Shown here: one piece after another, positions 31,328 to 63,241 of the stretch
Numbering within the stretch: position 1 is the stretch's first letter
Layout of the letters: each line of letters starts with the position of its first letter
IMG/VR virus record: IMGVR_UViG_2751185836_000001
Source of the DNA: a virus
Taxonomy: Duplodnaviria > Heunggongvirae > Uroviricota > Caudoviricetes
Length of the DNA: 64,000 nt
Reading direction: 5' to 3' (one strand)
Position numbers and translations under genes: made by a program
Notes under the pieces: generated by a model
What the model was told of the DNA's origin: nothing
The model's input: the letters and a program-made list of their open reading frames with translations, nothing else
Database searches by the model: none

Positions 31328-31554
31328 TAAAACGGGACCCCGGGCCCGACTGAGTCCGATGCCGCGAATGGTGCCAACAGGTGCCTTGGCATGAAATTCC
31401 ATGATAGAACGGATAACTATAACAAACGGAGTGTCTTTTCAAACAGAAAATGACAGCTTCCAGAGGAAGCCGCCATTTTCCGAGAGGACATTGCCTAAGT
31501 GATGTTATCTTGTTCCCGGAACCTCCCGCTGGTAACAGCGTGGAGAGCAGTCAG
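31328..31554 (+). ncRNA. predicted omega-RNA scaffold region of IS element B
   Basis: Same conserved 227-bp RE as 18624..18850. Confidence 0.35.
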
Positions 31555-32468
31555 TGTTAATATTCGTGATCATGGTGCTCATCTCCTGTGTACAGGTAGT
31601 GCAGCAGTCCAGGGCGATCGTCATTGAACGGCTGGGGGCCTACCAGGCTACCTGGGGCGTGGGCATCCACTTCAAGATCCCGTTCATCGAGCGGGTGGCT
31701 AGGCGGGTGGACTTAAAGGAGCAGGTAGTGGATTTCGCGCCGCAGCCCGTGATCACTAAGGATAATGTTACCATGCGGATCGACACGGTTGTGTTCTACC
31801 AAATCACAGACCCAAAGTTGTTCTGCTATGGCGTGGCCAACCCAATCATGGCCATCGAGAACCTGACAGCTACCACGCTGCGGAATATCATCGGTGACCT
31901 GGAGCTTGACCAGACGCTGACCTCCAGGGAGACCATCAACACAAAGATGCGGGCTACCCTGGACGTGGCCACGGATCCCTGGGGTATCAAGGTGAAGCGG
32001 GTGGAGCTTAAGAACATCATCCCGCCGGCAGCCATCCAGGACGCCATGGAGAAGCAGATGAAGGCAGAGCGTGAGCGCCGGGAGGCTATCCTCCGGGCAG
32101 AGGGTGAGAAGAAGTCCTCCATCCTCGTGGCGGAAGGTAAGAAGGAGTCCGTTATCCTGGACGCAGAAGCTGCGAAACAGGCTGCCATCCTCAAAGCGGA
32201 GGCTGAGAAAGAGGCTACTATCCGTGAGGCGGAAGGCCAGGCCGAGGCCATTCTCAAGGTACAGCAGGCCAACGCTGACGGTATCCGGTTCCTGAAGGAG
32301 GCCGGCGCTGACCAGTCTGTCCTCACCATCAAGAGCCTGGAGGCCTTTGAGAAGGCGGCGGACGGGAAGGCTACCAAGATCATCATCCCTTCTGAGATAC
32401 AGGGGATTGCCGGTCTGGTGAAATCCCTGACCGAAGTCGCGGAGACAGATGGAGCGGGAAAGGCATAA
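31554..32468 (+). CDS. SPFH/band-7 (stomatin/prohibitin-like) membrane protein
   Basis: N-terminal TM, then RAIVIERLGAYQATWGVGIHFKIPFIERV...VELKNIIPPAAIQDAMEKQMKAERERR, a canonical SPFH. GTG start directly abuts the IS-B RE terminus. Confidence 0.7.
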   Translation: MLIFVIMVLISCVQVVQQSRAIVIERLGAYQATWGVGIHFKIPFIERVARRVDLKEQVVDFAPQPVITKDNVTMRIDTVVFYQITDPKLFCYGVANPIMAIENLTATTLRNIIGDLELDQTLTSRETINTKMRATLDVATDPWGIKVKRVELKNIIPPAAIQDAMEKQMKAERERREAILRAEGEKKSSILVAEGKKESVILDAEAAKQAAILKAEAEKEATIREAEGQAEAILKVQQANADGIRFLKEAGADQSVLTIKSLEAFEKAADGKATKIIIPSEIQGIAGLVKSLTEVAETDGAGKA

Positions 32469-33087: not shown

Positions 33088-33222
33088 TTAATATCGTTTA
33101 AGAGACTCAACTTGAGTCTCTTTTTTATTCCTTTGTCTGAGAAAAATCGCTTATTGTAATACATGGTATTATTATATGTAGCAAAGATCGTAAAACACGA
33201 AAAACAGGAAGGGGGATTTCCG

Positions 33223-35391
33223 GTGGAAACCTTAAAAGGAACTGTAAAAAGGATCATATACAAAAACGAAGACACGGGCTTCCATATCATTTCGCTTCAG
33301 AACAATGACTTTGATGGCTGGGACAGCAGGGTGGTGGTCAAGGGAACCTTCTTCCCCATCGCGGAGGATGACGAGCTGACGATCTACGGAGAATATGCCG
33401 ATGATCCGAAATACGGACGGCAGTTCAACTGTGAAACCTATGAGGTCAACCTCCCCACAGACGCGAAGTCCATAGAAAAGTATCTGGCCGCCGGCATGAT
33501 CAAGGGGATCGGGCCGGCCAGGGCAAAGAAGATCGTAAAGCAGTTCAAGGATGATACCATGCGGGTCATCGAAGAGGAGCCGGAGCTGCTCACCCTCATT
33601 CCCGGCATCACGGACAAGACCGTGGCCCGCATCCGGGAGTCCATGACCGAGCGCCTGGGCCAGCAGCGGGTGATGATCCAGCTCTGCGGTCTTGGCGTGA
33701 CCCTTGGATTGGCCCAGAAGTTGTGGAAGAACTACAAAGAGAAGACCCTCCATATCATCCAAAGCGACCCGTATAAGTTAATCGATGACGTATGGGGCGT
33801 TGGCTTCTCAAAAACGGACGATATCGCCTTGAAACAGGGAATGAGCCGGACCGCCCCCAAGCGGATCCAGGCGGGTATCGTGTACACCCTGAAGACCAAC
33901 CGGAGCAGCGGAAGCCTTTACATGATGCTCCCGGACGTGAACCGGAAGTCAGCGGAGGTACTGCAGATAGATGAGACGAAGGTAGCCCAGGAAGTCCAGA
34001 ACATGGACGGCCACAGGCTCACCATCATGGGCAGGGACAATGACTATGTCTATCTTGACAAGGATTACCGTATAGAGAAGGAAACAGAAGAGGATATCAT
34101 CCGTATCAGCAAGGCGAAGATTGCTCCTAAGAAGCTGGACAAAACCTTATCCAAACTGGACAACACATTGGACGAGGTGCAGATGGGAGCGGTACGGACG
34201 GCTGCCGGCAGTGCCCTCATGGTCCTGACCGGAGGCCCTGGTACAGGAAAGACAACCACGGTCAATACGATCATCCGGTATTTTGAGCTTTCCGGTAAAT
34301 CAGTCGCATTGGCGGCCCCCACCGGGCGAGCGGCCAAAAGGATGATGGAGGCGACAGGTCGGGAGGCCAGGACACTGCACCGGCTCCTGGAGCTTGGACG
34401 GAGTGAGGACGGGGATATGGGCTACGGGAAAAACGACAGTGACCCGATCGACGCGGATGTGGTGATCGTGGACGAGACATCCATGATGGACATCTATATC
34501 GCCCATGCCCTGTTCGACGCGATCGAGACCGGAACACAGGTCATCCTGGTGGGTGATAAGAACCAGCTCCCCTCCGTGGGCCCAGGTAACGTGCTGGATG
34601 ATATCATCATGTCCGGTATTTGCCCGGTGGTGGAGCTCAAAAAGATCTACCGGCAGGCGGAAGGCAGTTTCATTATCGAAAACGCCCATCGTATCCTGTC
34701 CGGCCACGCCCTGAACCTGACAAACAAGACCTCTGATTTCTTTTTCAAGGAGTGCGATGATCCGCAAAAGCTGCAGGAGCTCCTGGTACACTATGTTGCT
34801 GACTCCCTGCCCGGCTTTACCGGCGAGTCCGAGATCCAGGTGCTTTCCCCTGTACGGAAGAGGCAGCTTGGCGTTGACAACCTCAACAAAGTGCTCCAGG
34901 ACCGGCTGAACCCAAGAAGAGACGGGGAGCCTGTTGCCAAGAATGGCTTCCGCATTGGTGACCGGGTGATCCAGACAGTCAATGACTACAACCGGGAGAA
35001 GGTGTTCACCAGGGATCTCCGGAAGAAAGAACTTGGCGTGTTCAACGGTGATCTGGGGACAGTGACCGCTATCGACCAGGAGGATGAAAAGGTCACGATC
35101 GAATTCGAGGACGGCTGGGCGGCTACCTATGAGTATTCCGAACTGGAGGCCCTGAGCCTTTCCTATGCACTGACGATCCATAAATCTCAGGGAAGTGAGT
35201 TCCCTGTGGTGGTCATCCCGGTGTATGACTATATCCCCATGCTCACCAGCATGAACCTGCTCTATACCGGCGTGACCCGCGCGAAAAAGGCCATCCTGCT
35301 GATTGGAAGCAAAAAGGTCCTTTACAACATGATCCGTAACGTAAAACCGACAAAAAGATACAGCGGGCTACTAAAGCACGTTGGGCAATAG
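33223..35391 (+). CDS. RecD2-like ATP-dependent SF1 DNA helicase
   Basis: GTG start 6 nt after GGAAGGGGG. N-terminus ETLKGTVKRIIYKNEDTGFHII is RecD2-type. HhH region present. Walker A LTGGPGTGKTTTV and Walker B VIVDETSMMD. C-terminal YALTIHKSQGSEFPVVV. Confidence 0.75.
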   Translation: METLKGTVKRIIYKNEDTGFHIISLQNNDFDGWDSRVVVKGTFFPIAEDDELTIYGEYADDPKYGRQFNCETYEVNLPTDAKSIEKYLAAGMIKGIGPARAKKIVKQFKDDTMRVIEEEPELLTLIPGITDKTVARIRESMTERLGQQRVMIQLCGLGVTLGLAQKLWKNYKEKTLHIIQSDPYKLIDDVWGVGFSKTDDIALKQGMSRTAPKRIQAGIVYTLKTNRSSGSLYMMLPDVNRKSAEVLQIDETKVAQEVQNMDGHRLTIMGRDNDYVYLDKDYRIEKETEEDIIRISKAKIAPKKLDKTLSKLDNTLDEVQMGAVRTAAGSALMVLTGGPGTGKTTTVNTIIRYFELSGKSVALAAPTGRAAKRMMEATGREARTLHRLLELGRSEDGDMGYGKNDSDPIDADVVIVDETSMMDIYIAHALFDAIETGTQVILVGDKNQLPSVGPGNVLDDIIMSGICPVVELKKIYRQAEGSFIIENAHRILSGHALNLTNKTSDFFFKECDDPQKLQELLVHYVADSLPGFTGESEIQVLSPVRKRQLGVDNLNKVLQDRLNPRRDGEPVAKNGFRIGDRVIQTVNDYNREKVFTRDLRKKELGVFNGDLGTVTAIDQEDEKVTIEFEDGWAATYEYSELEALSLSYALTIHKSQGSEFPVVVIPVYDYIPMLTSMNLLYTGVTRAKKAILLIGSKKVLYNMIRNVKPTKRYSGLLKHVGQ

Positions 35392-35544
35392 GCGGGGAAG
35401 GAGATATTATAAAGATGAGTAACGATACTTGGGTCTTGATTGAACATAACCTAAGCACGTAATCCCCTTCCTCGACAGGGGGGGAGTGCTTCGCTACCTG
35501 CCAAAGCTATCATGGCAATGTTGTCCATTGTCTACCAGTTTACT

Positions 35545-35595
35545 GTTGTTATCTTGTTTCAGGAACCTCCCGCTGGCAGCGTGGAGAGCAGTCAG
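35545..35595 (+). mobile_element. solo fragment of IS-B right end
   Basis: GTTGTTATCTTGTTTCAGGAACCTCCCGCTGGCAGCGTGGAGAGCAGTCAG matches the terminal about 50 bp of the B RE (one indel in the hairpin). Confidence 0.4.
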
Positions 35596-35756
35596 GCTGC
35601 TTCGGATTTTGCATATGGAAGAAATGGTATTTTCTGTTCTGCTGGCATATTATTTGTTTTGCCCGGGATGGGCTTGCATAAAATAAGCGGAAGGAACTAA
35701 TTTCCTTCCGTTTTTCCATGTTCCTTCGAAAGAAAAAGAAGAGGAGGAACACAAAA

Positions 35757-36374
35757 ATGGCAGAAAAAATGACAAGCCTCGATACGGCCAAACGCCTGAT
35801 CGAGGAGTACAGTATCAGGGAATTTGGGGAGATGGAGATCGACTTCTCTGACCTGTCAAAGATCCCTGTTGCAGCCACGACCTTCGATGAGGGCCAGCCT
35901 GGCGAGTATGAAGTCTCGGTTTTTCTGGACCTGGTGAACTACCAGCTCTTACAGTATATCAATGGTGAGTTGTATCACAAAGAAGAATATAACTCTCTGG
36001 AGGAGATGGTTGAACTGGTACTTAAAAGGCTGGAATTTGACCACCTTGTCTCCGTGGACAGGCCGGATGACGAAGAGGAAGAGGCAGTAAACATGGCTAT
36101 GGCCATCCGGCTGATCGAGGAGTACAGTATCAGAGAATTCGGGGATAAGGACATCGACTTTTCCGACATGGCGAAAATCCCTGTCGCCTCCACGATCATT
36201 GGCGAGGGGGATGACGATGAACGGGAAGTCCAGGTTTACCTGGATCTGGAAAACTATCGGCTCCTTCAGTATGTCGATGACGAGTTATATTATAAAGAAG
36301 AATACGACTCGTTAGGAAAAATGGTCGAATTGGCTATCAGGCCTTTGGACTTCGATCTCATTGTCTCAGTCTGA
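35757..36374 (+). CDS. hypothetical acidic protein with internal tandem duplication
   Basis: RBS AAGAGGAGGAACAC. Two about 100-aa repeats (RLIEEYSIREFGE..IDFSD..KIPVA..LQY..ELY.KEEY.SL..MVEL), related to the 43176/46621/47644 family. Confidence 0.5.
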   Translation: MAEKMTSLDTAKRLIEEYSIREFGEMEIDFSDLSKIPVAATTFDEGQPGEYEVSVFLDLVNYQLLQYINGELYHKEEYNSLEEMVELVLKRLEFDHLVSVDRPDDEEEEAVNMAMAIRLIEEYSIREFGDKDIDFSDMAKIPVASTIIGEGDDDEREVQVYLDLENYRLLQYVDDELYYKEEYDSLGKMVELAIRPLDFDLIVSV

Positions 36375-36699
36375 ACTTATTCTGCCAAGAAGGCTCCGAT
36401 AAGGGGCCTTTTTCTTTGGTGCAAATGTGTATTTATAGAAAATCGTGCGTTTCTTTCATATTCCTGCGAAATATTTTAAAGAGGAGGAAAAACTTCGTTA
36501 AAATGTATTAATGCGAGAACGTACAAGGAAACCTCAATCTTTACGGCACAAAACTACAGAAGTGTCAAACAATCGAGCCTTGATCTTAACAATCTTGAAT
36601 TTTTAGAATTTTATAGAGCTTATTGTAAAATTATTGAAAAATACAACGGAATAGTATATAATTATAATAACAAAAACAATTATGTGAATATAGCTGATT

Positions 36700-36834
36700 A
36701 TGAAAAAACTGTCTAAAAAAGAAGCCAAAAAAGTAATGGGTGGAAAGAAGTATCACTGTGATTATTGCAGTTTTTCCACAGACAGTCATGATGTAATGGT
36801 TATGCATTATAAGGGACTGCATAATATTACATGA
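36700..36834 (+). CDS. candidate bacteriocin precursor with double-glycine leader (44 aa; not in ORF track)
   Basis: MKKLSKKEAKKVMGG then KKYHCDYCSFSTDSHDVMVMHYKGLHNIT. Leader L-12, S-11, E-8, V-4, G-2G-1 fits the LSxxELxxIxGG consensus. Followed by a perfect-stem terminator and then ABC transporter genes, including a C39 peptidase exporter. The RBS is weak. Confidence 0.5.
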   Translation: MKKLSKKEAKKVMGGKKYHCDYCSFSTDSHDVMVMHYKGLHNIT

Positions 36835-36851
36835 CAGTAACTGGAGAACTG

Positions 36852-36883
36852 AAGAACCATGGCTAAAGGCCATGGTTCTTTTA
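36852..36883 (+). terminator. rho-independent terminator/attenuator after peptide gene
   Basis: GAACCATGGC-TAAAG-GCCATGGTTC (10-bp perfect stem) followed by TTTT. Confidence 0.5.
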
Positions 36884-36898
36884 CATAGGGGGGAAAAT

Positions 36899-39475
36899 AT
36901 GAATATCATTTATAAACTGACATGGCAGTATATGAAAAAAAATAGGAAACGCACAAAGGCGACGATTTTGGGAATTGTCTGTACTCTGGCCGTCCTGAGC
37001 GCCATCTATTTTTTCTCCCAGACTCTGTTAGGCGCAATCAGAAGCAGTATTATAGACGAGCAGGGCGGCTATCATGCCGTTTTCCACGAACTGGATCAAG
37101 AGCAATATTTGAAGTTAAGCCAGGACAAAAAGATCAAGCATGTTCAATTGGAGAACTGCAGTAGCCATGATGGGAAAAGTGCTTTGTGCGCCAGAGTGGA
37201 ACTGAAGAAGGTGAACTGGCTTATTTTTTCGACTACACAGAAGATAGCAGAACAGCTTGGAATGCGACAGCTTCCGGAAAATGAAAGGACAGAATTGCCA
37301 TACCGGGTGTCCGGGAAATACGATATTACATATCATATGGAGCTTTTGCAATATTATGGCATTAACCAGGTGGGGAAATTTGGCGTGGGGGTATTAATCA
37401 ATTTAATTCTCTTTCTCGTAATGCTTATGGGAAGCGTTTTAATTTATAATGCCTATGCCATCTCGACATTTGAAAAACTAAAGTATTTGGGAACGCTTGG
37501 CAGTATTGGGGCCACCGACTTCCAAAAGGCAAGCGTGGTCTATTGTGAAGGCATCCTGGAGGGGATAGCAGGCATACCTGTAGGGATTAGTGCAGGGGTG
37601 CTGCTGGTAAAAGGCATCGTTTTTGGCCTTCGGAAGCTTTTCTTTTATGAAGATACGCTCCTAGTGACCGTGACGGTAAAGGAGATACTCCTGCTTGTTC
37701 TTCTCGGATTTATCATGATCTTTTTCGCCTGTCTGTTTCCGGCGTGGAAAGCTGTCCAGGCGTCAGGATTAGACCTGGCTGTGCGCCCTTATACCATAGG
37801 GATAAAAATCCGCCAGAGGACGAATTTACTCGGAAAACACCGTATATTGGGGACGGTAGGGATGCTGGCGGCAAAAAACATCTGGATACGCCGGAAAAAT
37901 TATATATCCAATGGAATACTGATCATCCTTAGCTTTTGTGTAATCCTGGATGGGGCGGCTGCCATGCGGGGGATCAACGGGGACTACTACCCAAGGGATG
38001 ACCGGAGGCGTGAGAAATTACAGCTATGGGCAGAATTATATACAATGGATCAGGATAAAATCGAAAAATTCTATCAGGAAGTAAAAGATCTCCCGGAAGT
38101 CACTTCCGTTTCACTGGAACGAAATCTGGATTGGGGCGGGATATTATTACAGCCCGGACAGATCCAAAAGGACTTGCAGGAATTTGAGATATCGGGTGTA
38201 ACTGGCTTTGGTGGGCTTTCACGGGAAGAAGAAATGTCACAGATTAAGGGTGTGAAGGATATGCACTCAGGAAAATGGATAGAGGGATATTATCTGCGTA
38301 CGGTGATTGTTGGGTTAGATGACAATACGTTCCAGAATTATGTGGAAGCGGCGGGCTGTCAGATCCCGCGTCAGACGGGAGGGGCTTACTCCGTGCTGGT
38401 AGAAGATTATGAAGAGGTCCTGACTCCCCAGGGCGTGGATCAGCGGAGCATCCTGGATTTGCGTCCGGGAGATAGCTTATCCTTTTATTACAGCAGATAT
38501 GGGGATATGGAAGCCTATACGATAGGAAAATGGTATAGCGAACTTGATGAAATAAGACAGGGAAATTTTACGGTAATAGGGACCACGCAGGCCCCCCCGC
38601 CGTATCCTTATTTCTCTGGTATGCAAGATAATATAGATGGCTATCAGGAAAGAACGCTGGGTATTTGTCACATTTATATGTCTATGAGTGATTTTAAAAA
38701 GCTGCTGAAGGACCCTGCTTATCATGAGACTTATGGAGAACATCCAACGGATACGTATGCTTCTAATTATGAAAGCAAAAGCATTGCAACTTATGTAAAA
38801 TTCGAAATAAAAGGGTCGAGAAAAAACGATGAGAGCGGCTTATTAAGCCAACTACTGTACGGAGCAGAGTCATCTTCTCAAATGGAAAAGGAGAAGCGGA
38901 TAGGAGAAAAAATCAAAAAAATTGCCGAGGATGTAGGGCTTACGCAGGGAGAAGCGGCGGATTATAATTACATGCTTGCGGACGGAAGGGTATTGCCGGA
39001 AAATGACACCTTTGTTTTTAACAGCCGGCTGCTTTGGCAGAGGAACCAGTACTTCCATTCGGAAAAATTCTTCCAGCTGATCCTGGGATATGGGCTGGTA
39101 TTGTTGATCACAATACTGTCTTTAACCAATATTTTCCAGAATATTTCTACATCTATGAGGATGCGAAGGAAGGAGTTTTCGGCTTATCAGTCCATAGGAA
39201 TGTCTCCGGCTTCTTTAAGAAATATGCTGCTTTTCGAGGCCGCCATATATGGGGTGAGCGGTTGCCTAGCAGGCATACCACTAAGCTTTCTTCTCCTGTA
39301 TCAGGTATACCTTAGTTTTAAAGTAAATTATGCGATCCGCTGGGAAATGCCGTGGGATATGGTTCCTGTACAGATCGTGTTTGCAATCCTGATCATTGTC
39401 GTACCTGTTGTTTGTGCCATGTCCCAGCTGAAAAATTTAAATATTATAGACTCCATCCGGGATGAAAATATGTAA
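36899..39475 (+). CDS. FtsX-family (MacB-like) ABC transporter permease
   Basis: 858 aa. ATG 5 nt after AGGGGGG. N-terminal TM, large extracellular domains, and two clusters of 3-4 TM helices typical of double FtsX permeases. Directly followed by the ATPase gene. Confidence 0.65.
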   Translation: MNIIYKLTWQYMKKNRKRTKATILGIVCTLAVLSAIYFFSQTLLGAIRSSIIDEQGGYHAVFHELDQEQYLKLSQDKKIKHVQLENCSSHDGKSALCARVELKKVNWLIFSTTQKIAEQLGMRQLPENERTELPYRVSGKYDITYHMELLQYYGINQVGKFGVGVLINLILFLVMLMGSVLIYNAYAISTFEKLKYLGTLGSIGATDFQKASVVYCEGILEGIAGIPVGISAGVLLVKGIVFGLRKLFFYEDTLLVTVTVKEILLLVLLGFIMIFFACLFPAWKAVQASGLDLAVRPYTIGIKIRQRTNLLGKHRILGTVGMLAAKNIWIRRKNYISNGILIILSFCVILDGAAAMRGINGDYYPRDDRRREKLQLWAELYTMDQDKIEKFYQEVKDLPEVTSVSLERNLDWGGILLQPGQIQKDLQEFEISGVTGFGGLSREEEMSQIKGVKDMHSGKWIEGYYLRTVIVGLDDNTFQNYVEAAGCQIPRQTGGAYSVLVEDYEEVLTPQGVDQRSILDLRPGDSLSFYYSRYGDMEAYTIGKWYSELDEIRQGNFTVIGTTQAPPPYPYFSGMQDNIDGYQERTLGICHIYMSMSDFKKLLKDPAYHETYGEHPTDTYASNYESKSIATYVKFEIKGSRKNDESGLLSQLLYGAESSSQMEKEKRIGEKIKKIAEDVGLTQGEAADYNYMLADGRVLPENDTFVFNSRLLWQRNQYFHSEKFFQLILGYGLVLLITILSLTNIFQNISTSMRMRRKEFSAYQSIGMSPASLRNMLLFEAAIYGVSGCLAGIPLSFLLLYQVYLSFKVNYAIRWEMPWDMVPVQIVFAILIIVVPVVCAMSQLKNLNIIDSIRDENM

Positions 39476-39488
39476 GGGGGCAGATAAG

Positions 39489-40166
39489 ATGGAAGTGTTA
39501 AGGACAGAAGAGCTGACAAAAGAATATGGCTTTGGAGAAAATAAAGTCATCGCATTAGACCATGTATCCTTTTCCGTGGAAAAGGGAGAATTTGTTACGA
39601 TCCTGGGCCCATCCGGATCCGGGAAGTCCACGCTGCTCCATCTGGTCGGCGGCGTGGACAGACCGACACACGGGCAGGTCTTTATAGGCGGGCAATCCAT
39701 TTACAAAATGAAAAACCGGGATCTGACCGTATTCCGCAGACGGGAGATTGGACAGATTTATCAATTTTATAATCTCATTCCCGTGCTGGATGTAAAAGAA
39801 AACATCAGCCTTCCCGTGCTTTTGGATCATAAGAAGGTGGATCAGGAGGAGCTCCAGAAGCTGTTGGAGATACTTGGACTGGAAAAGAGGGCCGACCATC
39901 TGCCAAACGAACTGTCGGGAGGCCAGCAGCAGAGGGTGGCGATCGGGCGGGCGCTGATCAGCCAGCCCCAGTTGCTTCTGGCTGACGAACCGACCGGAAA
40001 TTTGGACCAGAAAAACAGTCTGGAAATTATCAATCTTTTCAAAGAGTTAAATGAGGTCTACAAACAAACCATTTTACTGATTACCCATGACGAGAAGATT
40101 GCCGGGAACAGCAGCCGGATTATCCGAATTGAAGACGGGAAGATCATAGAAGATATAAGGCGGTGA
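39489..40166 (+). CDS. ABC transporter ATP-binding protein
   Basis: Walker [11 protein letters not shown]-loop, signature [15 protein letters not shown], Walker [14 protein letters not shown]-loop ITHD. Confidence 0.8.
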
Positions 40167-40170: not shown

Positions 40171-40950
40171 ATGCGGTTTCGTGGAGTCTATCAACATGAT
40201 ACAAGGGATTGTGGAGTCGCATGCTTGGCTACAATCTGCAATTTTTATGGATTAAACGTTCCATTATCTTACATTCGAGAGTTAGAAAAGGTGAATATGA
40301 ATGGATCTAGTATCTATGGAATTTGCAAAGCTGCCGAGGTACTTGGAATGACAGCGGACGCTTATCAAGGAGAAATCGAAGATTTACTTTCTAATGTAAA
40401 CGAGACAAAGGAAATAGCAGTTCCATTTATAGTGCATACCATAAAAGATGATCTTTATCATTTTATGGTCGTAAAAAAGATAAGCACAAAATCAGTATGG
40501 CTTTTTGATCCAGATGAAGGAAACAGAAAAATAAAATTGGACGAATTTGCAAAGATCTGGACAGGCTATTTTATTGCTTTTCAATTGACGCCTCTTTTCA
40601 AAAAAGAAAATTTAAAAAAAGGAGCTTATCAAAATTATTCCTTATTATTTAAAAAATATAGAAAAGAATTTTTTACTATTCTGGGAACCTCTTTGTTAAT
40701 TGCGGGAATTACAATAGTAAGTACCCTCATTTTCCAACACATTATTGATCATTTTATGATGCACCCGAATTATGAATTAATGAGGGAAGTGAATACGATT
40801 TTCGCTATCATAATAGGTCTTTATATCTTAAGGTTGGGGATTTACCTTTTCAGGAGTATTATCGTAGCCATGCTTTTTCGCAATATAGAAAAGGATTTCC
40901 TTGAAAATTTTCAGGAAAACCTACTCAAAGTACCGTTGTCCTATTTTGAC
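40171..40950 (+). pseudogene. N-terminal part (C39 peptidase domain + first TM helices) of a bacteriocin-processing ABC exporter, cut by IS element A
   Basis: QHDTRDCGVACLATICNFYG is the C39 Cys-active-site motif. The ORF runs into the IS LE at 40951 (LPPHARDFSRE* is encoded by the IS). No TMD or NBD continuation is found after the IS. Confidence 0.65.
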
Positions 40951-41208
40951 GCATTACCGCCGCACGCTCGTGACTTTAGTCGTGAGTAAGGCGGTCTTAT
41001 ATTTTATTCTATTAATAGTTATTTTTTGTTATTGTTAAGATATGTATAAACAACATTTTTTCTAAGTTTTTTTGTTCATCTGATAAAAATGATCTTATTT
41101 GCATATTTGTTATAATGGATAAAAATGTATCTTAATTGTGAGCATATGGCTACAACGCATGTTATGACATGATTGCAGTCACGGAAAACCAAATGAAAGG
41201 AGTCGTCT

Positions 41209-42534
41209 ATGAAACTCATCTCCACATATAGTGTGAAACTAAAAGAATACAGACATATCTTCAAAGACACCATCCGAGTGTACCGTGCAGCGGTAGACTT
41301 CTTTCTCATGGTCTGTGACCAGGAATGGGAGAAAGTCTCTGACATCAGTACATCAAAATTTCAGATGACGTTTATAGAACAGCTCACACATAAAACAGCA
41401 AAAAATCCGGCCACAAAATATGATTTTGATGCAGTCTTTTATAAGTTTCCCTCTTACCTACGTCGAGCAGCCATTTATGAGACTTTAGGTAAATACTTTT
41501 CCTATCGATCCAACCTGGCAAACTGGGAAAGGGATCCGCAGGGGCGGAAACCTTCCTTCCCTAAAGCGGGATACGTGTATCCCTGTCTGTACCGGGATGG
41601 CATGTACGAGCGGACAGATATATACACAGCTCGGATCAAGGTCTATATCCGCAATACCTGGGACTGGATCGATATTAAACTTCGTAAAAGTGATGTGGAT
41701 TACATCCAACGTCACTGCTCCCACAGAAAGGAGTGTGCCCCCACTCTCCAGAAAAGGGGAAAAGAATGGTTCCTGGACTTTCCTTTTGAGGAACAGGTTA
41801 CATTGAACAACACACCTTCCAAAGAGCAGGTGATCGCTGCCGTGGACCTTGGCATCAACAGCGCCGCCACGGTTTCCGTTATGCGCGCGGATGGCACTGT
41901 CCTGGGCCGGCATTTCTGTCGGCTTCCCAGAGAAAAAGACTCTCTTGCGCATGCGGTGAACCGGGTCAAAAAAGCACAGCAGCACGGAGCCAGGAAAATG
42001 CCCCGCTTATGGGCACGGGCGAACGGCATCAATGACGATATCGCGGTCAAAACAGCAAGGTTTATCATTGAGGTGGCCGTCCTTTATAACGCGGATGTGA
42101 TCGTGTTCGAGCACCTGGACCTGAAGGGTCGGAAGCGCGGCTCCAAAAAGCAGCGTCTCCACTTATGGAAAGCCCGCCGTGTCCAGTCCATCGTAACGGA
42201 CCAAGCCCACCGTCTTGGTATGCGCGTCAGCCATGTCAACGCCTGGAACACCAGCCGCCTTGCCTTCGATGGCAGCGGGCGCGTCCTCCGGGGCCGGCAG
42301 TCTGAAAAGACGGGTGGCTCCTACAGCGTATGCGAGTTCCAGAACGGAAAGGTCTATAACTGCGACCTGAACGCCACCTATAACATAGGGGCGAGATACT
42401 TTATCCGGACACTCTTAAAATCCTTGCCGGCAACGGAGAGGTTGGCCGTGGAGGCAAAAGTCCCTTCATGCGCTAAGAGAAGCACCTGCACCTTATCCAC
42501 GCTTACTAGCCTGTACGCGGTCCTGGCGGCTTAA
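41209..42534 (+). CDS. tnpB: TnpB (OrfB) RNA-guided endonuclease of IS element A
   Basis: 441 aa. C-terminal NAWNTSRLAFDGSG...CDLNATYNIGARYF carries the TnpB RuvC-III D.NAA.NI signature. Confidence 0.8.
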   Translation: MKLISTYSVKLKEYRHIFKDTIRVYRAAVDFFLMVCDQEWEKVSDISTSKFQMTFIEQLTHKTAKNPATKYDFDAVFYKFPSYLRRAAIYETLGKYFSYRSNLANWERDPQGRKPSFPKAGYVYPCLYRDGMYERTDIYTARIKVYIRNTWDWIDIKLRKSDVDYIQRHCSHRKECAPTLQKRGKEWFLDFPFEEQVTLNNTPSKEQVIAAVDLGINSAATVSVMRADGTVLGRHFCRLPREKDSLAHAVNRVKKAQQHGARKMPRLWARANGINDDIAVKTARFIIEVAVLYNADVIVFEHLDLKGRKRGSKKQRLHLWKARRVQSIVTDQAHRLGMRVSHVNAWNTSRLAFDGSGRVLRGRQSEKTGGSYSVCEFQNGKVYNCDLNATYNIGARYFIRTLLKSLPATERLAVEAKVPSCAKRSTCTLSTLTSLYAVLAA

Positions 42535-42652
42535 CAGTTGTCAGATGGCTGAGTTCAGGCCCTATGGTGGAAAGGCTGTCCGATCCCCCTAAAGGGGAAC
42601 CGCCGCCAGGCGGCAGTAGGAAGCACGTGAATTTATTCATGTGAGGCTTCAC
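42535..42652 (+). ncRNA. predicted omega-RNA scaffold region of IS element A
   Basis: Same conserved 118-bp RE as 8585..8702. Confidence 0.35.
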
Positions 42653-42977
42653 TGTCCCTGTCGAAAAGCAGCCGGAGTTCTTTACACATCTGGTACGCTG
42701 CTACGAGACCGGCAGGACGGAAGACATCAAGACATTTTTGTACGAGACATCCATCGACGGATTTAACAAAGAAATGACCGTCCAGCCGCCTATTAATAAG
42801 GCGCAGTTTTCAGACATGATCGATATTATTAATTCCGACGGTAAGCCAGAGACGATTACGCGTGAAGCCCTGGCCATGAGGATCTTAGACGGGGACACTG
42901 TTCAGATCGTCAACGAAGCCGAGCCCAAAATCCCTCCCCGGTCATACGAAGAAGAGCAAATTGAGCCGGGAGATTAA
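42653..42977 (+). pseudogene. 3' fragment of an unrelated gene joined to the IS-A right end
   Basis: The frame is open from the IS boundary through 42977 (VPVEKQPEFF...QIEPGD*) with no plausible start. Confidence 0.3.
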
Positions 42978-47643: not shown

Positions 47644-48552
47644 ATGTTAATTCACGTAGCAGACACGATTGAGAGGCTCAACGCCTTTGAGGAGACCGCG
47701 GATCCGGAGGTTCTTGCCCAGGTAAGGGATCTTTTGCGGGAGGTCCGCTGGCATCTGGAGAACCCGTCCCTTTCCATGTGCGTCCAGGAAGCGGCATTTG
47801 AACTGGGAGAAGAGGGATATGACCATCCGTCCCAGGAACTGCTGGAGGAAGCCACGAAAGCACTGTACTTCAGTGAGACCTTCATCGATGGCGAAACAGC
47901 GTATGACCTTGTAGAGAAGGTCATAGAGGAGAGAGGGCTGCGGCTGGAAGACATCATCGAAGACGGTGAAGTCCTGGTGGAATACGGGACAACAGTCATC
48001 CCGCAGGCCCACTGCATCATGGCCAAGGAAAGTGATGATCTCATGAGCGCACTGGAAGACACGCTCCACAGGATCCTCTTGATCGGCGATGAAGGAGATG
48101 TCAATGAGATCATGGGAGCACGCCGCGCGAACGATGCTGAGATGGACGCGCTTGCCGAGAATGACGAGGAGTTCATCGAAATCGATGACGGCTACATCCT
48201 GCCGGGATACATAGCCGGCATGAAAAAGCTGGAAGCTCGGCGGATCAAAAGCCTTGCGGACCTGCTCTTCCTGGATGACAGGATCGTGGAGTTCCGTACA
48301 ACCGCCTATCCGTTTCCCTTACACTGTATCATGGGGGAGAAGAAAGCGGTGACCGTGGAGAACATCAAGGCAGCTCTGAGTGTCACACTTGGGCGTATGC
48401 TCGGCAGCGGCGCGACGGAAGCGGATGTCAGGCATTTCCTTGGAGCGTTCATCCCAACGGATGAAAAGCACAAGTTTATGCTGACGCATGACCATTACTT
48501 TGATATCGGGCTTGGCTACATCCTGCTGGGCGAAATCCTGCTCAGTGAATGA
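47644..48552 (+). CDS. hypothetical protein, paralog family P (member 3, two tandem domains)
   Basis: RBS ATAAGAGGAGGACAAAAAT. Contains two repeats of the family domain (IMGA..P....GYILPGYI and FLGAFIP....GLGYILLG). Confidence 0.5.
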   Translation: MLIHVADTIERLNAFEETADPEVLAQVRDLLREVRWHLENPSLSMCVQEAAFELGEEGYDHPSQELLEEATKALYFSETFIDGETAYDLVEKVIEERGLRLEDIIEDGEVLVEYGTTVIPQAHCIMAKESDDLMSALEDTLHRILLIGDEGDVNEIMGARRANDAEMDALAENDEEFIEIDDGYILPGYIAGMKKLEARRIKSLADLLFLDDRIVEFRTTAYPFPLHCIMGEKKAVTVENIKAALSVTLGRMLGSGATEADVRHFLGAFIPTDEKHKFMLTHDHYFDIGLGYILLGEILLSE

Positions 48553-48647
48553 TCAACAGGAGAGAAGGCGTACCCATTGGTGCGTCTTTTCTTTTTGTAT
48601 TTTTTCATATTACAGAGAATTTTTTAATAAGAGGAGGAACAGAAAAA

Positions 48648-49616
48648 ATGAAAACAGCAGAAAACAAACAGAAGGTCTTTGAGGAATTGTCCCTGTATGA
48701 TCCGTTCATGTTCGCCAAGGTACTGAACGACCCGGAAAAGTGCAGAGGACTGTTTGAGCGTGTGATCGGGGAACCCGTCAAAAGCGTGACCGGGGTTCAG
48801 TCCCGCTATGATGGGACTACGGAGGCTGTCCTGGCGTTCCAGGCAGAAAGCGAGACGGATCTGTATTCCGTCTGTGTCCGCCATATTAAGCATGGCAACG
48901 TAGGAGCGGCCGGCGCTCATGCCATGGCAATGGCAGAGAACCTTTGTCGTGGGAAGAAGGTGCAGCCGCAGATCGTGGGCATCGTGATCACGCCCTTCGA
49001 CCCGTTCGGTAAGATGAGGGGAAAATATACCTTATCCTACTATGACAGGGAAGCGGATTGCGGCCTGAGCGGAGGCCCGCGCCAGATCATCCTGAGTACG
49101 GTGGGGAGAGGAGAAGACAAGAGTCTTCAGAATTTCCTCGACTATATGGCAGGACGGGCTTTGGTTTATCATGATGACTACATTGTTAGCCTCATGAACG
49201 CCGTAAAAGCAGTACGGGATAATCCGTTTTGGGCGGCCGAGTATCATGACCTTGCCCGATTAAGGGATACCGCTCTGCGGGATGGCCGCGTGGAAATGTT
49301 GAAAAGCGCACTGAAAAAAGGCGCAAAGGCAGAGTACATCAAGAATTTCCTTGGTGCTACAGACGAGGAGCTTGAAATGGCTACAACGGAGCAGCCGGGA
49401 GATTGTGAGAGGCCCAAGGCCAAACGCTTATTCAACCTGCATAATACCAACAAACCGGTGTATGCGGTCGCATACGGAGAAAACCTCCAGGATGCGGTGA
49501 AACGTACCTGCGATGAAATTAACCTGCATAAGCGTGGAGAAAGCACCGTCCCGGACGAATGGGATGGTGAAGAGTTTAATATCGATACGCACCATGGCGT
49601 GTTGATATTTGACTAA
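48648..49616 (+). CDS. hypothetical protein (weak resemblance to Rpn/YhgA-like PD-(D/E)XK N-terminus)
   Basis: RBS ATAAGAGGAGGAACAG. N-terminus LSLYDPFMFAKVLNDPEKCRGLFERVIG resembles the L.DP.D.VFK..F motif of Rpn-family proteins. Unverified. Confidence 0.35.
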   Translation: MKTAENKQKVFEELSLYDPFMFAKVLNDPEKCRGLFERVIGEPVKSVTGVQSRYDGTTEAVLAFQAESETDLYSVCVRHIKHGNVGAAGAHAMAMAENLCRGKKVQPQIVGIVITPFDPFGKMRGKYTLSYYDREADCGLSGGPRQIILSTVGRGEDKSLQNFLDYMAGRALVYHDDYIVSLMNAVKAVRDNPFWAAEYHDLARLRDTALRDGRVEMLKSALKKGAKAEYIKNFLGATDEELEMATTEQPGDCERPKAKRLFNLHNTNKPVYAVAYGENLQDAVKRTCDEINLHKRGESTVPDEWDGEEFNIDTHHGVLIFD

Positions 49617-49703
49617 TGTTCTGTTAGTTTGCTACATAAGAAAGCGCCCCATGTCGGGCGCTTTTTTTTATCAAAATTACGGCAAGGATACTCCATCTTC
49701 TTA

Positions 49704-50009
49704 TTACTCTGGCGTTTTAATCATCCCATATGACCGCAGCAGCAGGTACATGTCCCGCATACCTGTCATATACATGAGGTCATTCATATCCGTGTTATTC
49801 CGGTCGGTGGCCTCCAGGAGATCCTCCACAACTTCCCGCTGCCGCTCTGTGAGCGTGCTTTTGATTTCTATATATTGTTTTTCAGCTTTCCCGTGAGCCT
49901 CGGACGACTCCTGATATGCCTGGTCATTCTTGATAAAATCCATCATAGACTGCTCTTTGAGAAAAGCCAAGCCTTCTTTTAGCAGATCCTGCACCATGCG
50001 TTCATCCAT
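49704..50009 (-). CDS. hypothetical protein (YolD-like position next to Y-family polymerase)
   Basis: Start at MDERM with GGAGGTAATGAG RBS (the longer track ORF has a GC-rich implausible N-terminus). Divergent from the polymerase gene. Confidence 0.35.
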   Translation of the reverse strand: MDERMVQDLLKEGLAFLKEQSMMDFIKNDQAYQESSEAHGKAEKQYIEIKSTLTERQREVVEDLLEATDRNNTDMNDLMYMTGMRDMYLLLRSYGMIKTPE

Positions 50010-50215
50010 CTCATTACCTCCATCCTGTCTTATAAGCGGATTATACATTATATTTAGAAAAGATACGCCTTTCTCACATGAAGAAAAATATTTATGAATG
50101 AAAAAACGGAACCAGGTTCCGCCTTTTGCCAAAATAGCCCAGAACATATATTCGATTTTAATGTTGTCAGAACGTATGTTCTGTGTTATAGTTTTCTCAG
50201 AAAGGGGGTGGAAGC

Positions 50216-51688
50216 GTGAAAACCGAAAGAAGCTATATCTGCATTGACCTAAAGTCCTTTTACGCTTCCGTGGAGTGCCGGGAGCGGGGACTCGACCCAC
50301 TGACCACGAACCTGGTGGTGGCAGATGAAAGCCGGACAGACAAGACCATCTGCCTGGCCGTGACGCCGGCACTGAAAGAGCGGGGTGTGCCCGGGCGGCC
50401 CCGGCTGTTTGAAGTCAAGCGGAAGGTGCGGGAACTAAACTGTGGCCGGAACGGACCGGCTACGTCATGCGATAAGACGGTCCTGGATCGGCACCGGAAC
50501 ATCCGGATCGACTTTATCATCGCGCCGCCCAGGATGGCCCTCTACATGAACTACAGCGTCCGGATCTATCAGGTATATCTGCGGTATATTGCTCCAGAGG
50601 ATATCCATGTATACAGTATTGACGAGGTGTTCATGGATGTGACGGACTATCTGCGGACCTACAGGATGACCGCCCATGAACTGGCCTTAAAGATCATAAA
50701 GGACGTACTGAAGGAAACGGGGATCACGGCTACAGTTGGCCTGGGGACCAACATGTACCTGGCAAAGGTGGCCATGGACATCCTAGCCAAGAAGGCGGCT
50801 CCAGATCGGGACGGAGCCAGGATTGCCGCGCTGACGGAGAGTTCCTACCGGGAAAAGCTGTGGGGGCACCGTCCGATCACGGATTTCTGGAGAGTGGGCC
50901 ACGGCTATGAAAGGAAGCTGAAGAGTGTGGGCATCACCACGATGGGGGAGATTGCGAGATGCTCCATAGGAAAGTCTGGGGACTATTATAACGAGGATCT
51001 GCTATACAAGCTATTTGGTGTGAACGCGGAACTGCTCATCGACCATGCCTGGGGCTGGGAGCCGTGCACGATCCAGGATGTAAAGTCCTATAAACCATCC
51101 TCCAATAGTCTCAGTTCGGGGCAGGTCCTGCACGAGCCATATTCGCCTGATAAGGCCCGGGTCATCGTGATCGAGATGGCCGACAGCCTGGCCATGGATC
51201 TGACCCGCAAGGGTGTTGCTACAGACCAGATTGTGATGACCATCGGGTACGATGTCTCCAGTATCAAACCGGGGTTTAAGGGTTCGATCCACGTATATCT
51301 TGACTGGTATGGGCGGCCCGTGCCCGTGCATGCCCATGGAACGTACAATCTGCAGTATTTTACCGCTTCTAGTGCAGAGATCACCAGGGCGGCCGCCACA
51401 TTGTATGACCGGATCATCAACCCGGAGTTTATGATACGCAGGGTCAATATCTGTGCCACGCACGTGAAGGAAGCCCCGGAGGAAAATTTCGTGCAGCTGG
51501 ACCTGTTTACCGACTATGTAGGCCTGGAGCGGGAAAAGAAGAGGAAGGAACGGGAACTGAGGCTCCAGGAAGCGGTCCTGGATATCAAGGCCAGGTACGG
51601 GAAAAACGCCGTTCTCAAAGGCACTAACCTGCTAGAGGGAGCGACCATGCGGGAGAGGAACGAACAGATAGGAGGGCACAAGGCATGA
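50216..51688 (+). CDS. Y-family (UmuC/DinB-like) translesion DNA polymerase
   Basis: GTG start after AAAGGGGGTGGAAGC. N-terminus SYICIDLKSFYASVECRERGLDP. Palm/finger motifs SIDEVFMDVT. 490 aa. Confidence 0.8.
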   Translation: MKTERSYICIDLKSFYASVECRERGLDPLTTNLVVADESRTDKTICLAVTPALKERGVPGRPRLFEVKRKVRELNCGRNGPATSCDKTVLDRHRNIRIDFIIAPPRMALYMNYSVRIYQVYLRYIAPEDIHVYSIDEVFMDVTDYLRTYRMTAHELALKIIKDVLKETGITATVGLGTNMYLAKVAMDILAKKAAPDRDGARIAALTESSYREKLWGHRPITDFWRVGHGYERKLKSVGITTMGEIARCSIGKSGDYYNEDLLYKLFGVNAELLIDHAWGWEPCTIQDVKSYKPSSNSLSSGQVLHEPYSPDKARVIVIEMADSLAMDLTRKGVATDQIVMTIGYDVSSIKPGFKGSIHVYLDWYGRPVPVHAHGTYNLQYFTASSAEITRAAATLYDRIINPEFMIRRVNICATHVKEAPEENFVQLDLFTDYVGLEREKKRKERELRLQEAVLDIKARYGKNAVLKGTNLLEGATMRERNEQIGGHKA

Positions 51689-52086: not shown

Positions 52087-52142
52087 TTGAAAAGCAACAC
52101 CGGCTCCTTTCTCCCATATTCAGGGGAAAGGAGTTCGTGTTT

Positions 52143-54366: not shown

Positions 54367-54367
54367 A

Positions 54368-63206: not shown

Positions 63207-63241
63207 TGGAACTGCTTGAGTAATACTGGAGAGGAGACAAA

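What the first reader, a model, noticed from the sequence alone, without database searches (positions are those of the whole stretch)
40951..42652. TnpB-only IS element A: boundaries pinned to the base by an interrupted host ORF; three copies in different decay states
Copy 2 (58893..60596) sits inside ORF 58252..60843. Deleting exactly 58893..60596 rejoins ...CAGTTGAC|TGAAAG... into one continuous 296-aa reading frame. This proves a scarless insertion 3' of TTGAC, an LE beginning GCATTACCGCC, and an RE ending GAGGCTTCAC. Copy 1 (40951..42652) has the same ends but is flanked by two unrelated gene fragments (C39 exporter N-terminus on the left, an ORF tail on the right), implying an IS-associated deletion or two-ended rearrangement. 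Copy 2 carries a +1 frameshift in a G-run of tnpB (GGGG vs GGG at ~59468). Copy 3 (8011..8702) keeps only a diverged LE hairpin fused to the last 178 codons of tnpB plus the RE. A solo LE of 107 bp lies at 6799..6905. The 118-bp RE contains two hairpins and is the expected omega-RNA scaffold.
Basis: seen in the sequence. Interest (0 to 1): 0.5.

Follow-up and report, generated by a model that had tools for sequence, protein, structure and literature searches.

The report
TnpB-only IS200/IS605 insertion sequence copies
This is an ordinary small "jumping gene" of the IS200/IS605 family that carries only the RNA-guided nuclease TnpB and its guide RNA, present as one intact copy, one frameshifted copy and two decayed remnants. 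Its exact ends, its TTGAC landing site and an associated deletion can all be confirmed from related genomes.

Summary
Copy 1 (40951..42652) and copy 2 (58893..60596) share identical ends. Excising copy 2 restores a 295-aa gene. That gene exists uninterrupted in at least 7 related proteins and 8 DNA "empty sites".

The element is a non-autonomous, TnpB-only (IS1341-type) member of the IS200/IS605 family. It inserts without duplication 3' of TTGAC/T and has subterminal hairpins at both ends. Its 441-aa TnpB keeps the RuvC D-E-D triad but has lost the C4 zinc finger. A roughly 165-nt structured omega-RNA scaffold, supported by covariation, spans the tnpB 3' end and the right end.

About half of 27 relatives in Lachnospiraceae and allied genomes carry a cognate Y1 tnpA upstream. 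The window has none; its only tnpA belongs to a different element that targets TTAC.

The suspected deletion at copy 1 is confirmed. An IS-free contig shows exporter C-terminus, a 169-aa gene, then TTGAC|109-aa gene.

Corrections:
- The right flank is a whole gene minus its start codon, not a tail.
- The G-run is at 59474..59477, and the extra G is private to this assembly.
- Copy 3 starts at 8006.
- The solo LE is 6809..6909.

This is a well-documented new member of a known kind. Interest is low.

The parts
40946..40950 (+). Target/TAM pentanucleotide TTGAC flanking the LE of copy 1. It lies inside codons Y-F-D of the C39 exporter gene.
   Evidence: The same motif (TTGAC, TTGAT or TTGAA) sits about 16-17 nt 5' of the LE hairpin in 19 of the 21 related loci where the LE hairpin was found.
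40951..42652 (+). Copy 1 of element A (1702 nt). It is the only copy in the window with an intact tnpB.
   Evidence: The identical junctions are seen in an independent metagenome contig, L039.
40956..40995 (+). LE subterminal nested hairpin. The outer stem is ACCGCC/GGCGGT and the inner stem is CTCGTGAC-TTTA-GTCGTGAG. It is the presumed TnpA recognition structure on the top strand.
   Evidence: DNA fold. The outer stem covaries across relatives (CCGCC/GGCGG, GGCGG/CCGCC, CCACC/GGTGG).
41209..42534 (+). tnpB, 441 aa. The RuvC triad is D213, E301 and D386. The C4 zinc finger is degenerate.
   Evidence: Differences from the copy-2 allele (L044) are 13 synonymous to 4 non-synonymous.
42488..42652 (+). 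Predicted omega-RNA scaffold. It has a long-range stem, a nested stem across the stop codon, hairpin H1 (CTAAA loop), hairpin H2, and a terminal hairpin that doubles as the RE TnpA hairpin.
   Evidence: RNAalifold and pair counts give 94.5% of cells paired and 19 pairs with compensatory changes, against 10.6 +/- 1.4 in shuffles (0 of 500) and 3-9 in slid controls. H1 and H2 form in all 21 sequences with different stem sequences. MFE is -68.3 kcal/mol, z = -3.4.
42653..42672 (+). Predicted guide segment of the copy-1 omega-RNA, taken from flank DNA immediately 3' of the RE.
   Evidence: Inferred by analogy with ISDra2 (PMC8612924). The matching TAM-plus-target sequence exists as an empty site in L047.
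58893..60596 (+). Copy 2 of element A (1704 nt), inserted 3' of TTGAC (58888..58892) inside a 295-aa gene. Its tnpB is frameshifted.
59474..59477 (+). GGGG run, where copy 1, L044, L045, L038 and L039 have GGG. The +1 frameshift truncates TnpB after about 118 residues.
58252..58892 (+). 5' part (codons 1-213 and two bases of codon 214) of the interrupted 295-aa host gene.
60597..60843 (+). 3' part of the interrupted host gene.
8006..8702 (+). Copy 3, an internal-deletion derivative (697 nt). It has a 16-nt LE leader and the inner hairpin, fused to tnpB codons 264-441 (ORF 8048..8584), followed by the complete RE/omega-RNA region. It is flanked by TTGAT (8001..8005).
   Evidence: H334N falls at a residue that is invariant in the family.
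6809..6909 (+). Solo LE relic. It is LE nt 1-24 joined to the 77 nt upstream of the tnpB start. The hairpin is destroyed.
40171..40950 (+). N-terminal 260 codons of a C39-peptidase ABC exporter, truncated by copy 1.
   Evidence: Pfam Peptidase_C39 at E=5e-37. TIGR01193 positions 1-247 of 708 are matched. No second ABC nucleotide-binding domain occurs in the window.
42653..42977 (+). 109-aa gene whose TTG start codon formed the target TTGAC. It is now headless; the frame starts at 42654.
   Evidence: P0014 is 97% identical over the full length. The L047 empty site reads ...GGGATATTGAC|TGTCCCTGTC.

Best explanation
Element A is a non-autonomous, TnpB-only (IS1341-type architecture) insertion sequence of the IS200/IS605 family.

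Shown here
- It has exact ends.
- It inserts 3' of TTGAC (TTGAT/A in relatives) with no target duplication.
- It has subterminal hairpins on the same strand at both ends.
- It encodes a TnpB with an intact RuvC D-E-D triad.
- It has a conserved, covarying RNA structure spanning the tnpB 3' end and the RE.
- Nearly identical copies sit at several different sites.
- Autonomous relatives carry their own Y1 tnpA between the same LE and tnpB.

Inferred
- The element is moved as single-stranded DNA ('peel and paste') by a cognate Y1 HUH TnpA supplied in trans. That TnpA reads the two hairpins and cleaves 3' of TTGAC and 3' of ...TTCAC.
- The RE is transcribed into a roughly 165-nt omega-RNA whose 3' end (about 16-20 nt) copies the flanking DNA.
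- TnpB loaded with this RNA cuts the empty donor joint (TAM TTGAC plus guide match). Repair from the sister copy then restores the element.
- Copy 1 can supply TnpB in trans to the omega-RNAs of copies 2 and 3.

Deletion at copy 1
- The chimeric flanks of copy 1 mark a deletion of about 2 kb between two TTGAC sites.
- The most likely cause is homologous recombination between two directly repeated copies, one in the C39 exporter gene and one at the TTG start of the 109-aa gene.
For: - Ends and scarless insertion.
- RE end conserved to ...TTCAC in 25 loci whose flanks are unrelated.
- TTGAH target about 16-17 nt 5' of a covarying LE hairpin in 19 of the 21 relatives where the hairpin was found (two, L009 and L012, show no such motif).
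- Hairpin folds.
- TnpB identity and D-E-D triad. RefSeq annotation of a relative as TnpB.
- Omega-RNA covariation.
- Cognate tnpA (YVYSLQYHIVW...MPDHIHLL...LWGGHLWNPSYF) directly upstream of tnpB in about 12 of 27 relatives that carry the same LE hairpin.
- Recent mobility: copies at least 98.6% identical have 4-5 different right flanks (copy 1, copy 2, L038, L040, and copy 3).
- Purifying selection on tnpB (13 synonymous to 4 non-synonymous).
- Deletion: L047 versus the window, and no exporter NBD in the window.
- Recombination between copies does occur: L038 is a copy-2/copy-1 mosaic.
- Mechanistic precedent for ISDra2 (TTGAT; about 150-nt RE-derived RNA plus a 16-nt flank guide; donor-joint cleavage) is PMC8612924. 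Precedent for trans-mobilised TnpB-only elements is PMC10055086.
Against: - No cognate tnpA lies in the 64-kb window, and the rest of the genome could not be searched.
- Pfam OrfB_IS605 and TNB, and NCBIfam guided_TnpB, all score below their curated cut-offs.
- The C4 zinc finger is missing.
- Rfam has no match.
- The consensus scan finds no sigma-70 promoter in the element. Only an extended -10 (TGTTATAAT, 41108..41116) is visible by eye.
- The single-sequence AlphaFold model was unusable (pLDDT 41).
- RNA expression, the TAM and cleavage are all untested.
- The two-copy recombination route for the deletion is inferred from its end points only.
Confidence: 0.85

Rival explanations
1. The copy 2 frameshift is an assembly or sequencing error, so copy 2 is intact. 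The window would then hold two functional tnpB genes.
For: Same-site copies in other samples (L044, L045) share the copy-2 SNPs but have GGG and a full 441-aa ORF. The difference is a single base in a homopolymer.
Against: A 3-to-4 G run is short for a typical homopolymer error. Copy 2 also carries a second private, non-synonymous change about 120 nt upstream (A68D, 59354) that is absent from L044, L045 and copy 1. That fits real decay.
Confidence: 0.2
2. The deletion at copy 1 was made by the transposase itself. In this view an aberrant one-ended reaction joined the exporter's TTGAC to the LE of a single copy at the 109-aa gene, rather than homologous recombination between two copies.
For: Both deletion end points lie exactly 3' of a TTGAC. 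That is the site the LE-guided active site recognises.
Against: No such reaction is part of the documented IS200/IS605 cycle (PMC8612924 and PMC10055086). Two independent insertions at TTGAC sites followed by recombination explain the same end points. A mosaic copy (L038) shows that copies do recombine.
Confidence: 0.12
3. Element A is mobilised by the TnpA of the other IS605-type element in the window (element B, tnpA 53971..54366).
For: It is the only tnpA in the window and it looks intact (131 aa, HUH motif MPDHVHLL).
Against: B inserts 3' of TTAC, not TTGAC. Its end hairpins (CCACTGGTAACAGTGTG) are unrelated to those of A. Its TnpA is only 30-40% identical to the TnpAs that accompany A-type ends in relatives.
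Confidence: 0.05
4. The tnpB genes are domesticated host genes (for example nuclease-dead, TldR-like regulators) rather than parts of a mobile element.
For: The zinc finger is lost and sequence-model scores are sub-threshold.
Against: The D-E-D triad is invariant in 24 family members. The gene always sits between a conserved LE and RE. Nearly identical copies lie at different sites, and empty sites exist.
Confidence: 0.02

Closest known systems
ISDra2 of Deinococcus radiodurans (IS200/IS605 family; TnpA + TnpB; PMC8612924)
   Same: Both use a pentanucleotide target/TAM of the TTGAT type. Relatives of element A use TTGAT and the window copies use TTGAC. Both insert 3' of the target without duplication and have subterminal hairpins. 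In both, an RNA of about 150-165 nt is derived from the tnpB 3' end and the RE, with the guide taken from the flank.
   Different: Element A lacks tnpA. Its TnpB is too distant from the ISDra2 protein to be matched in the PDB sequence search, where the best hit was 9nzp_A. Its TnpB lacks the C4 zinc finger. Its LE-to-tnpB spacer is an unrelated AT-rich 258 nt.
IS1341-type (TnpB-only) elements of the IS200/IS605 family, and the trans-mobilised ISGst elements of Geobacillus (PMC10055086)
   Same: The architecture is the same: LE, tnpB, then RE/omega-RNA, with no transposase gene. Both occur as multiple copies together with decayed and mini derivatives. Autonomous relatives share the same ends.
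   Different: The TnpB subclade and TAM differ. Trans-mobilisation is demonstrated for Geobacillus but only inferred here.
Ruminococcus albus 7 plasmid pRUMAL01 TnpB WP_013483362.1 and 35 further loci in Lachnospiraceae and allied genomes
   Same: These belong to the same family. TnpB is 53-75% identical, and the RE end (...GTGTGAGGCTTCAC) and LE hairpin match.
   Different: The window's allele has compensatory changes in the RE hairpin (CACGTGAA/TTCATGTG versus CACGCGAC/GTCGTGTG). It has a TTGAC rather than a TTGAT flank.
IS608 of Helicobacter pylori (mechanistic model for Y1 TnpA)
   Same: Both show asymmetric spacing of the cleavage sites relative to the hairpins. In element A the spacing is 16 nt 5' of the LE hairpin and 9 nt 3' of the RE hairpin. 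Both produce a scarless donor joint.
   Different: IS608 targets the tetranucleotide TTAC. Element B in this window uses TTAC, but element A does not.

Membership tests
IS200/IS605 family | Insertion 3' of a fixed tetra- or pentanucleotide with no target-site duplication (scarless) | tested here: met
   Excising copy 2 restores the gene, and 8 empty DNA sites exist. The empty site for the right junction of copy 1 reads TTGAC|TGTCCC.
IS200/IS605 family | No terminal inverted repeats; imperfect subterminal hairpins at both ends on the same strand | tested here: met
   The LE and RE hairpins fold as DNA on the + strand. They share the core CGTGAC-TTTA-GTCGTG in relatives and covary.
IS200/IS605 family | Y1 HUH transposase TnpA | tested here: not met
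   tnpA is absent from all window copies. A cognate tnpA is present between the same LE and tnpB in about 12 of 27 relatives. The window element is therefore a non-autonomous family member (IS1341-type architecture), not an autonomous IS605.
TnpB (RNA-guided nuclease, OMEGA system) | Match to curated TnpB sequence models | tested here: inconclusive
   TIGR01766 scores 42.5, above its cut-off of 32. NF040570 guided_TnpB scores 83.5 against 100, PF01385 scores 27.7 against 30.5, and PF07282 scores 21.2 against 26.3. The family profile matches PDB TnpB 9nzp_A at E=5e-11 and Cas12f at 2e-7.
TnpB (RNA-guided nuclease, OMEGA system) | RuvC-like catalytic triad D-E-D | tested here: met
   E301 (VFEHL) and D386 (NCDLNA) are invariant and D213 (AVDLG) is at least 90% conserved in 24 sequences. 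All three align with the catalytic motifs of 9nzp_A.
TnpB (RNA-guided nuclease, OMEGA system) | C4 zinc finger between RuvC-II and RuvC-III | tested here: not met
   The first CxxC is replaced by DGSG, and only C375 and C385 are conserved. Loss of the zinc finger is documented for some large TnpB branches (PMC10691335), so this does not exclude membership.
TnpB (RNA-guided nuclease, OMEGA system) | Structured omega-RNA encoded across the tnpB 3' end and the RE | tested here: met
   There are 37 consensus pairs, 94.5% of cells are paired, and 19 pairs show compensatory changes (0 of 500 shuffles; slid controls 3-9). Two further hairpins form in all 21 sequences. Transcription itself was not testable.
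TnpB (RNA-guided nuclease, OMEGA system) | TAM-dependent, RNA-guided DNA cleavage | not testable with these tools
   This needs a biochemical or plasmid-interference assay.
IS607 family | Serine recombinase TnpA adjacent to tnpB | tested here: not met
   No serine recombinase is present in the window copies or upstream of tnpB in the relatives, where the partner is a Y1 HUH protein. NF038280 IS607_TnpB scores 22.3 against a cut-off of 350.
TldR-like domesticated TnpB | Loss of catalytic residues and of transposon ends | tested here: not met
   The triad is kept and both ends are conserved.

The most novel reading that the evidence does not exclude
All eight empty alleles of the copy-2 host gene carry TTAAC at the target, whereas every occupied allele carries TTGAC. 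The most novel reading not excluded is that this split is a population footprint of TnpB homing. TAM-bearing empty alleles would be cut and converted wherever the element is present, so only TAM-mutant alleles would persist unoccupied. The plainer reading is that only the lineage that happened to have TTGAC could be hit. In addition, an empty TTGAC site with a full guide match does persist at the other locus (L047).
Probability: 0.08. Interest if true: 0.45.

Novelty: new member of a known kind. Interest (0 to 1): 0.15.

Why it matters
The practical value is for annotation.
- It gives base-exact ends, the target/TAM (TTGAC/T), and a covariation-supported omega-RNA model for a zinc-finger-less TnpB subclade common in gut Lachnospiraceae. 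That subclade has 324 50%-identity clusters at E<=1e-30.
- It explains three pseudogenes in this region: the C39 exporter, the 109-aa gene and the 295-aa gene.
- It documents an IS-mediated deletion of about 2 kb.

It opens no new biological question. A compact TnpB with a defined TAM and guide scaffold could be a candidate for genome-editing screens, as many such proteins are.

Tried and rejected
- Rfam at gathering thresholds over the whole window gave no hit.
- The single-sequence AlphaFold2 model of TnpB had mean pLDDT 40.9 and pTM 0.32. It was unusable, so no fold search was run.
- The consensus promoter scan of 40800..42800 found no sigma-70-type site.
- A search for a cognate tnpA in the window found only the element-B tnpA and a remnant of it. 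Cross-mobilisation by B was rejected on its target (TTAC) and its hairpins.
- A search for the rest of the C39 exporter in the window found none. Close homologues in the protein database are themselves truncated (P0009, P0012) or chimeric (P0011), so no intact orthologue was recovered.
- A search of the phage collection gave one unannotated 67%-identical hit.
- I considered whether copy 3 and the solo LE are two halves of one disrupted copy. I rejected this: copy 3 has its own TTGAT target, leader and hairpin, and tnpB codons 1-263 are missing from both.
- ISfinder could not be queried, so it is unknown whether the element already has an IS name.
Full report
**1. The observation**

Copy 1 (40951..42652, 1702 nt) and copy 2 (58893..60596, 1704 nt) begin with GCATTACCGCC and end with GAGGCTTCAC. 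They differ by 22 substitutions and two single-base indels.

Joining 58252..58892 to 60597..60843 gives an 888-nt frame of 295 codons plus a stop. A protein search with the rejoined product found seven uninterrupted homologues of 294-297 aa at 78-88% identity. All align without a gap across the junction AFQLT|ERCW.

At DNA level, eight contigs carry the empty site ...TTAAC|TGAAAGA.... The base after the target is therefore native, and the insertion is scarless.

A 2-nt ambiguity remains, because the flank ends ..GAC and the RE ends ..CAC. The family removes it in two ways:
- In 25 unrelated loci, conservation stops exactly after ...GAGGCTTCAC and the flanks then diverge.
- In 19 of the 21 loci where the LE hairpin was found, a TTGAC, TTGAT or TTGAA lies about 16-17 nt 5' of it; L009 and L012 show no such motif.

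The RE motif and the LE hairpin each occur exactly three times in the window, with none expected by chance.

**2.

- The G-run is at 59474..59477.
- Copy 3 starts at 8006, directly after TTGAT (8001..8005). Its inner hairpin is identical to that of copy 1. Its 16-nt leader differs and resembles that of autonomous relatives such as L004. The 3' arm of the outer stem is deleted.
- Copy 3 keeps tnpB codons 264-441 (178 aa, ORF 8048..8584). It differs from copy 1 at 15 synonymous and 3 non-synonymous codons, including H334N at a residue invariant in the family.
- The solo LE is 6809..6909. It is LE nt 1-24 joined to the 77 nt that precede the tnpB start. A 159-nt internal deletion removes the hairpin.

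**3. What the protein is**

The 441-aa ORF (41209..42534) is a divergent TnpB.
- It passes NCBIfam TIGR01766.
- It scores below the curated cut-offs of NF040570, PF01385 and PF07282.
- A profile of 24 family members matches PDB chain 9nzp_A (TnpB) at E=5e-11 and Cas12f chains at about 1e-7.
- RefSeq names a 67%-identical (DNA) relative on the Ruminococcus albus 7 plasmid 'IS200/IS605 family element transposase accessory protein TnpB'.

The RuvC triad (D213, E301, D386) is conserved throughout the family: E301 and D386 are invariant and D213 is at least 90% conserved. The C4 zinc finger is gone: the first CxxC is DGSG, and only two cysteines remain. Loss of the zinc finger in some large TnpB branches is documented (PMC10691335).

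The subclade is moderately large. It has 324 50%-identity clusters at E<=1e-30 and 1506 at E<=1e-3.

Divergence between the copy-1 allele and the copy-2 allele (taken from L044) is 13 synonymous to 4 non-synonymous codons. This indicates purifying selection.

**4. What the element is**

In 36 related loci from Lachnospiraceae, Ruminococcus, Eubacterium, Mitsuokella and others, about 12 of 27 usable loci carry a Y1 HUH transposase gene. Its motifs are YVYSLQYHIVW, MPDHIHLL and LWGGHLWNPSYF. It sits between the same LE hairpin and tnpB (LE-to-tnpB distance about 530 nt).

About 9 loci are TnpB-only like the window, with an LE-to-tnpB distance of 75-280 nt.

Element A is therefore a non-autonomous, IS1341-type derivative of an IS605-type family whose target is TTGAT/C. 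ISDra2 uses the same TTGAT target (PMC8612924).

The LE outer stem covaries across loci (CCGCC/GGCGG, GGCGG/CCGCC, CCACC/GGTGG). The RE hairpin of the window shows compensated changes relative to the family. This is as expected for structures read as single-stranded DNA.

**5. The RNA**

An alignment of 21 sequences, running from 60 nt inside tnpB to the RE end, gives a consensus structure with four parts:
- a long-range stem (window about 42491..42500 with 42568..42577);
- a nested stem across the stop codon;
- two further hairpins, H1 (CTAAA loop) and H2, which form in all 21 sequences with different stem sequences;
- a terminal hairpin closed by GAAGC/GCTTC.

Pair counts support the structure. 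94.5% of cells are paired. 19 of 37 pairs have changes on both sides, against 10.6 +/- 1.4 in shuffles (0 of 500) and 3-9 when the partners are slid.

The window sequence 42488..42652 folds to the same architecture at -68.3 kcal/mol with z = -3.4.

This matches the omega-RNA layout of ISDra2, which has a scaffold of about 150 nt from the tnpB 3' end and the RE plus a roughly 16-nt flank-derived guide. Rfam has no matching family. Expression is untested.

All three copies keep the complete scaffold. One intact TnpB (copy 1) could therefore serve three guides; this is an inference.

**6. Copy 1 and the deletion**

The left flank is the first 260 codons of a C39-peptidase ABC exporter (Peptidase_C39 at E=5e-37; TIGR01193 positions 1-247 of 708). 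The window contains no second ABC nucleotide-binding domain.

The right-flank frame (42654..42974) is 97% identical over its full length to a 109-aa protein, P0014, which starts MTVPVEK.

In its contig L047 the gene starts TTG ACT GTC, so the empty site reads ...GGGATATTGAC|TGTCCCTGTC. It is preceded by a 169-aa gene and by the C-terminal 305 residues of an ABC exporter with Walker A and signature motifs. None of this 1.9 kb is found in the window.

Copy 1 therefore sits on a deletion of about 2 kb whose two end points are both exactly 3' of a TTGAC. The simplest route is two insertions in direct orientation followed by homologous recombination.

Two further observations bear on this:
- Contig L038 is a copy-2/copy-1 mosaic with a third right flank, which shows that copies recombine. 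An assembly chimera cannot be excluded for that 2.6-kb contig.
- The same copy-1 junctions occur in an independent sample, L039.

**7. Copy 2**

The same insertion site is occupied in other samples (L044, L045, L046; P0008 cluster). There the element shares the copy-2 SNPs but has GGG and an intact 441-aa tnpB.

The extra G and a second private change (A68D) are specific to this assembly, GCA_900120345.1 / LT635479.1. This is either a recent inactivation or, less likely, an error.

Fifteen of the 22 substitutions between copies 1 and 2 cluster in 41880..42057. Copy 3 is copy-1-like there, which suggests an imported patch in the copy-2 allele.

**8. Trans-acting transposase**

The only tnpA in the window belongs to a second element, B3 (53810..56069). 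Its exact ends come from the empty site in L044, which reads ...GGTATATTAC|GAAAAATACAAC....

B inserts 3' of TTAC, and its hairpins (CCACTGGTAACAGTGTG) are unrelated to those of A. Its TnpA is only 30-40% identical to A-type TnpAs.

Cross-mobilisation is therefore unlikely. The cognate TnpA must lie elsewhere in the genome or has been lost. I could not search the rest of the chromosome.

**9. Verdict**

It is a well-resolved but ordinary example of a known kind. It is a TnpB-only IS200/IS605 element with one intact copy, one frameshifted copy, one mini-derivative and one relic, plus an IS-associated deletion.

Its distinguishing features are modest. It belongs to a zinc-finger-less TnpB subclade, its TAM is TTGAC/T, and its omega-RNA model is supported by covariation.

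Noticed in passing
window 53810..56069 (B3); about 17037..18855 (B1); about 29719..31559 (B2): A second, unrelated IS200/IS605 family is present, also in three states. B3 is complete, with Y1 tnpA at 53971..54366 and a tnpB of about 490 aa ending at 55843. B1 has lost tnpA. B2 is truncated on the left inside tnpA. The empty site in L044 (...GGTATATTAC|GAAAAATACAAC...) fixes the B3 ends and shows insertion 3' of TTAC. The end hairpins are CCACTGGTAACAGTGTG and CCGCTGGTAACAGCGTGG.
   Followed up: partly
window 58888..58892 versus L041-L043, L049-L052 and L054: All eight empty alleles of the 295-aa host gene read TTAAC at the target (a synonymous Leu codon). All occupied alleles (window, L038, L044, L045) read TTGAC. 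This fits a requirement for G at target position 3. Lineage effects are not excluded.
   Followed up: partly
window 41880..42057 versus 59824..60001: Fifteen of the 22 substitutions between copies 1 and 2 fall in this 180-nt stretch, and most are synonymous. Where it overlaps (from 41996), copy 3 matches copy 1. This suggests a recombination patch in the copy-2 allele. Contig L038 switches from copy-2-like to copy-1-like between 41880 and 41886.
   Followed up: partly
window 40171..40950; proteins P0009, P0012: The C39 exporter is also truncated at other positions in other metagenome assemblies (241-aa and 159-aa products with different out-of-frame tails). No intact close orthologue was recovered, so the gene may be decaying across this lineage.
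   Followed up: no
window 8006..8702: Copy 3 keeps a target, the LE leader and inner hairpin, the RE hairpin and a full omega-RNA scaffold in 697 nt. It could still be mobilisable as a PATE-like mini-element carrying a guide RNA gene. It sits just after the stop codon of a 78-aa ORF (7762..7998).
   Followed up: no
window 33163..40166, 47644..53109 and 60950..64000; loci L041, L044: The gene content suggests an integrated mobile element or prophage-like region. It includes a RecD2-like helicase, FtsX/ABC genes, and a Y-family polymerase. Related contigs add YolD-like, LexA-like, NUMOD4, D12 methyltransferase and RNase H genes. Many of the small ORFs, including the 295-aa and 109-aa host genes, have no Pfam match.
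   Followed up: no
window 41108..41116: An extended -10 element (TGTTATAAT) lies about 95 nt upstream of the tnpB start, inside the AT-rich 258-nt LE spacer. The consensus promoter scan reports no full -35/-10 site.
   Followed up: no
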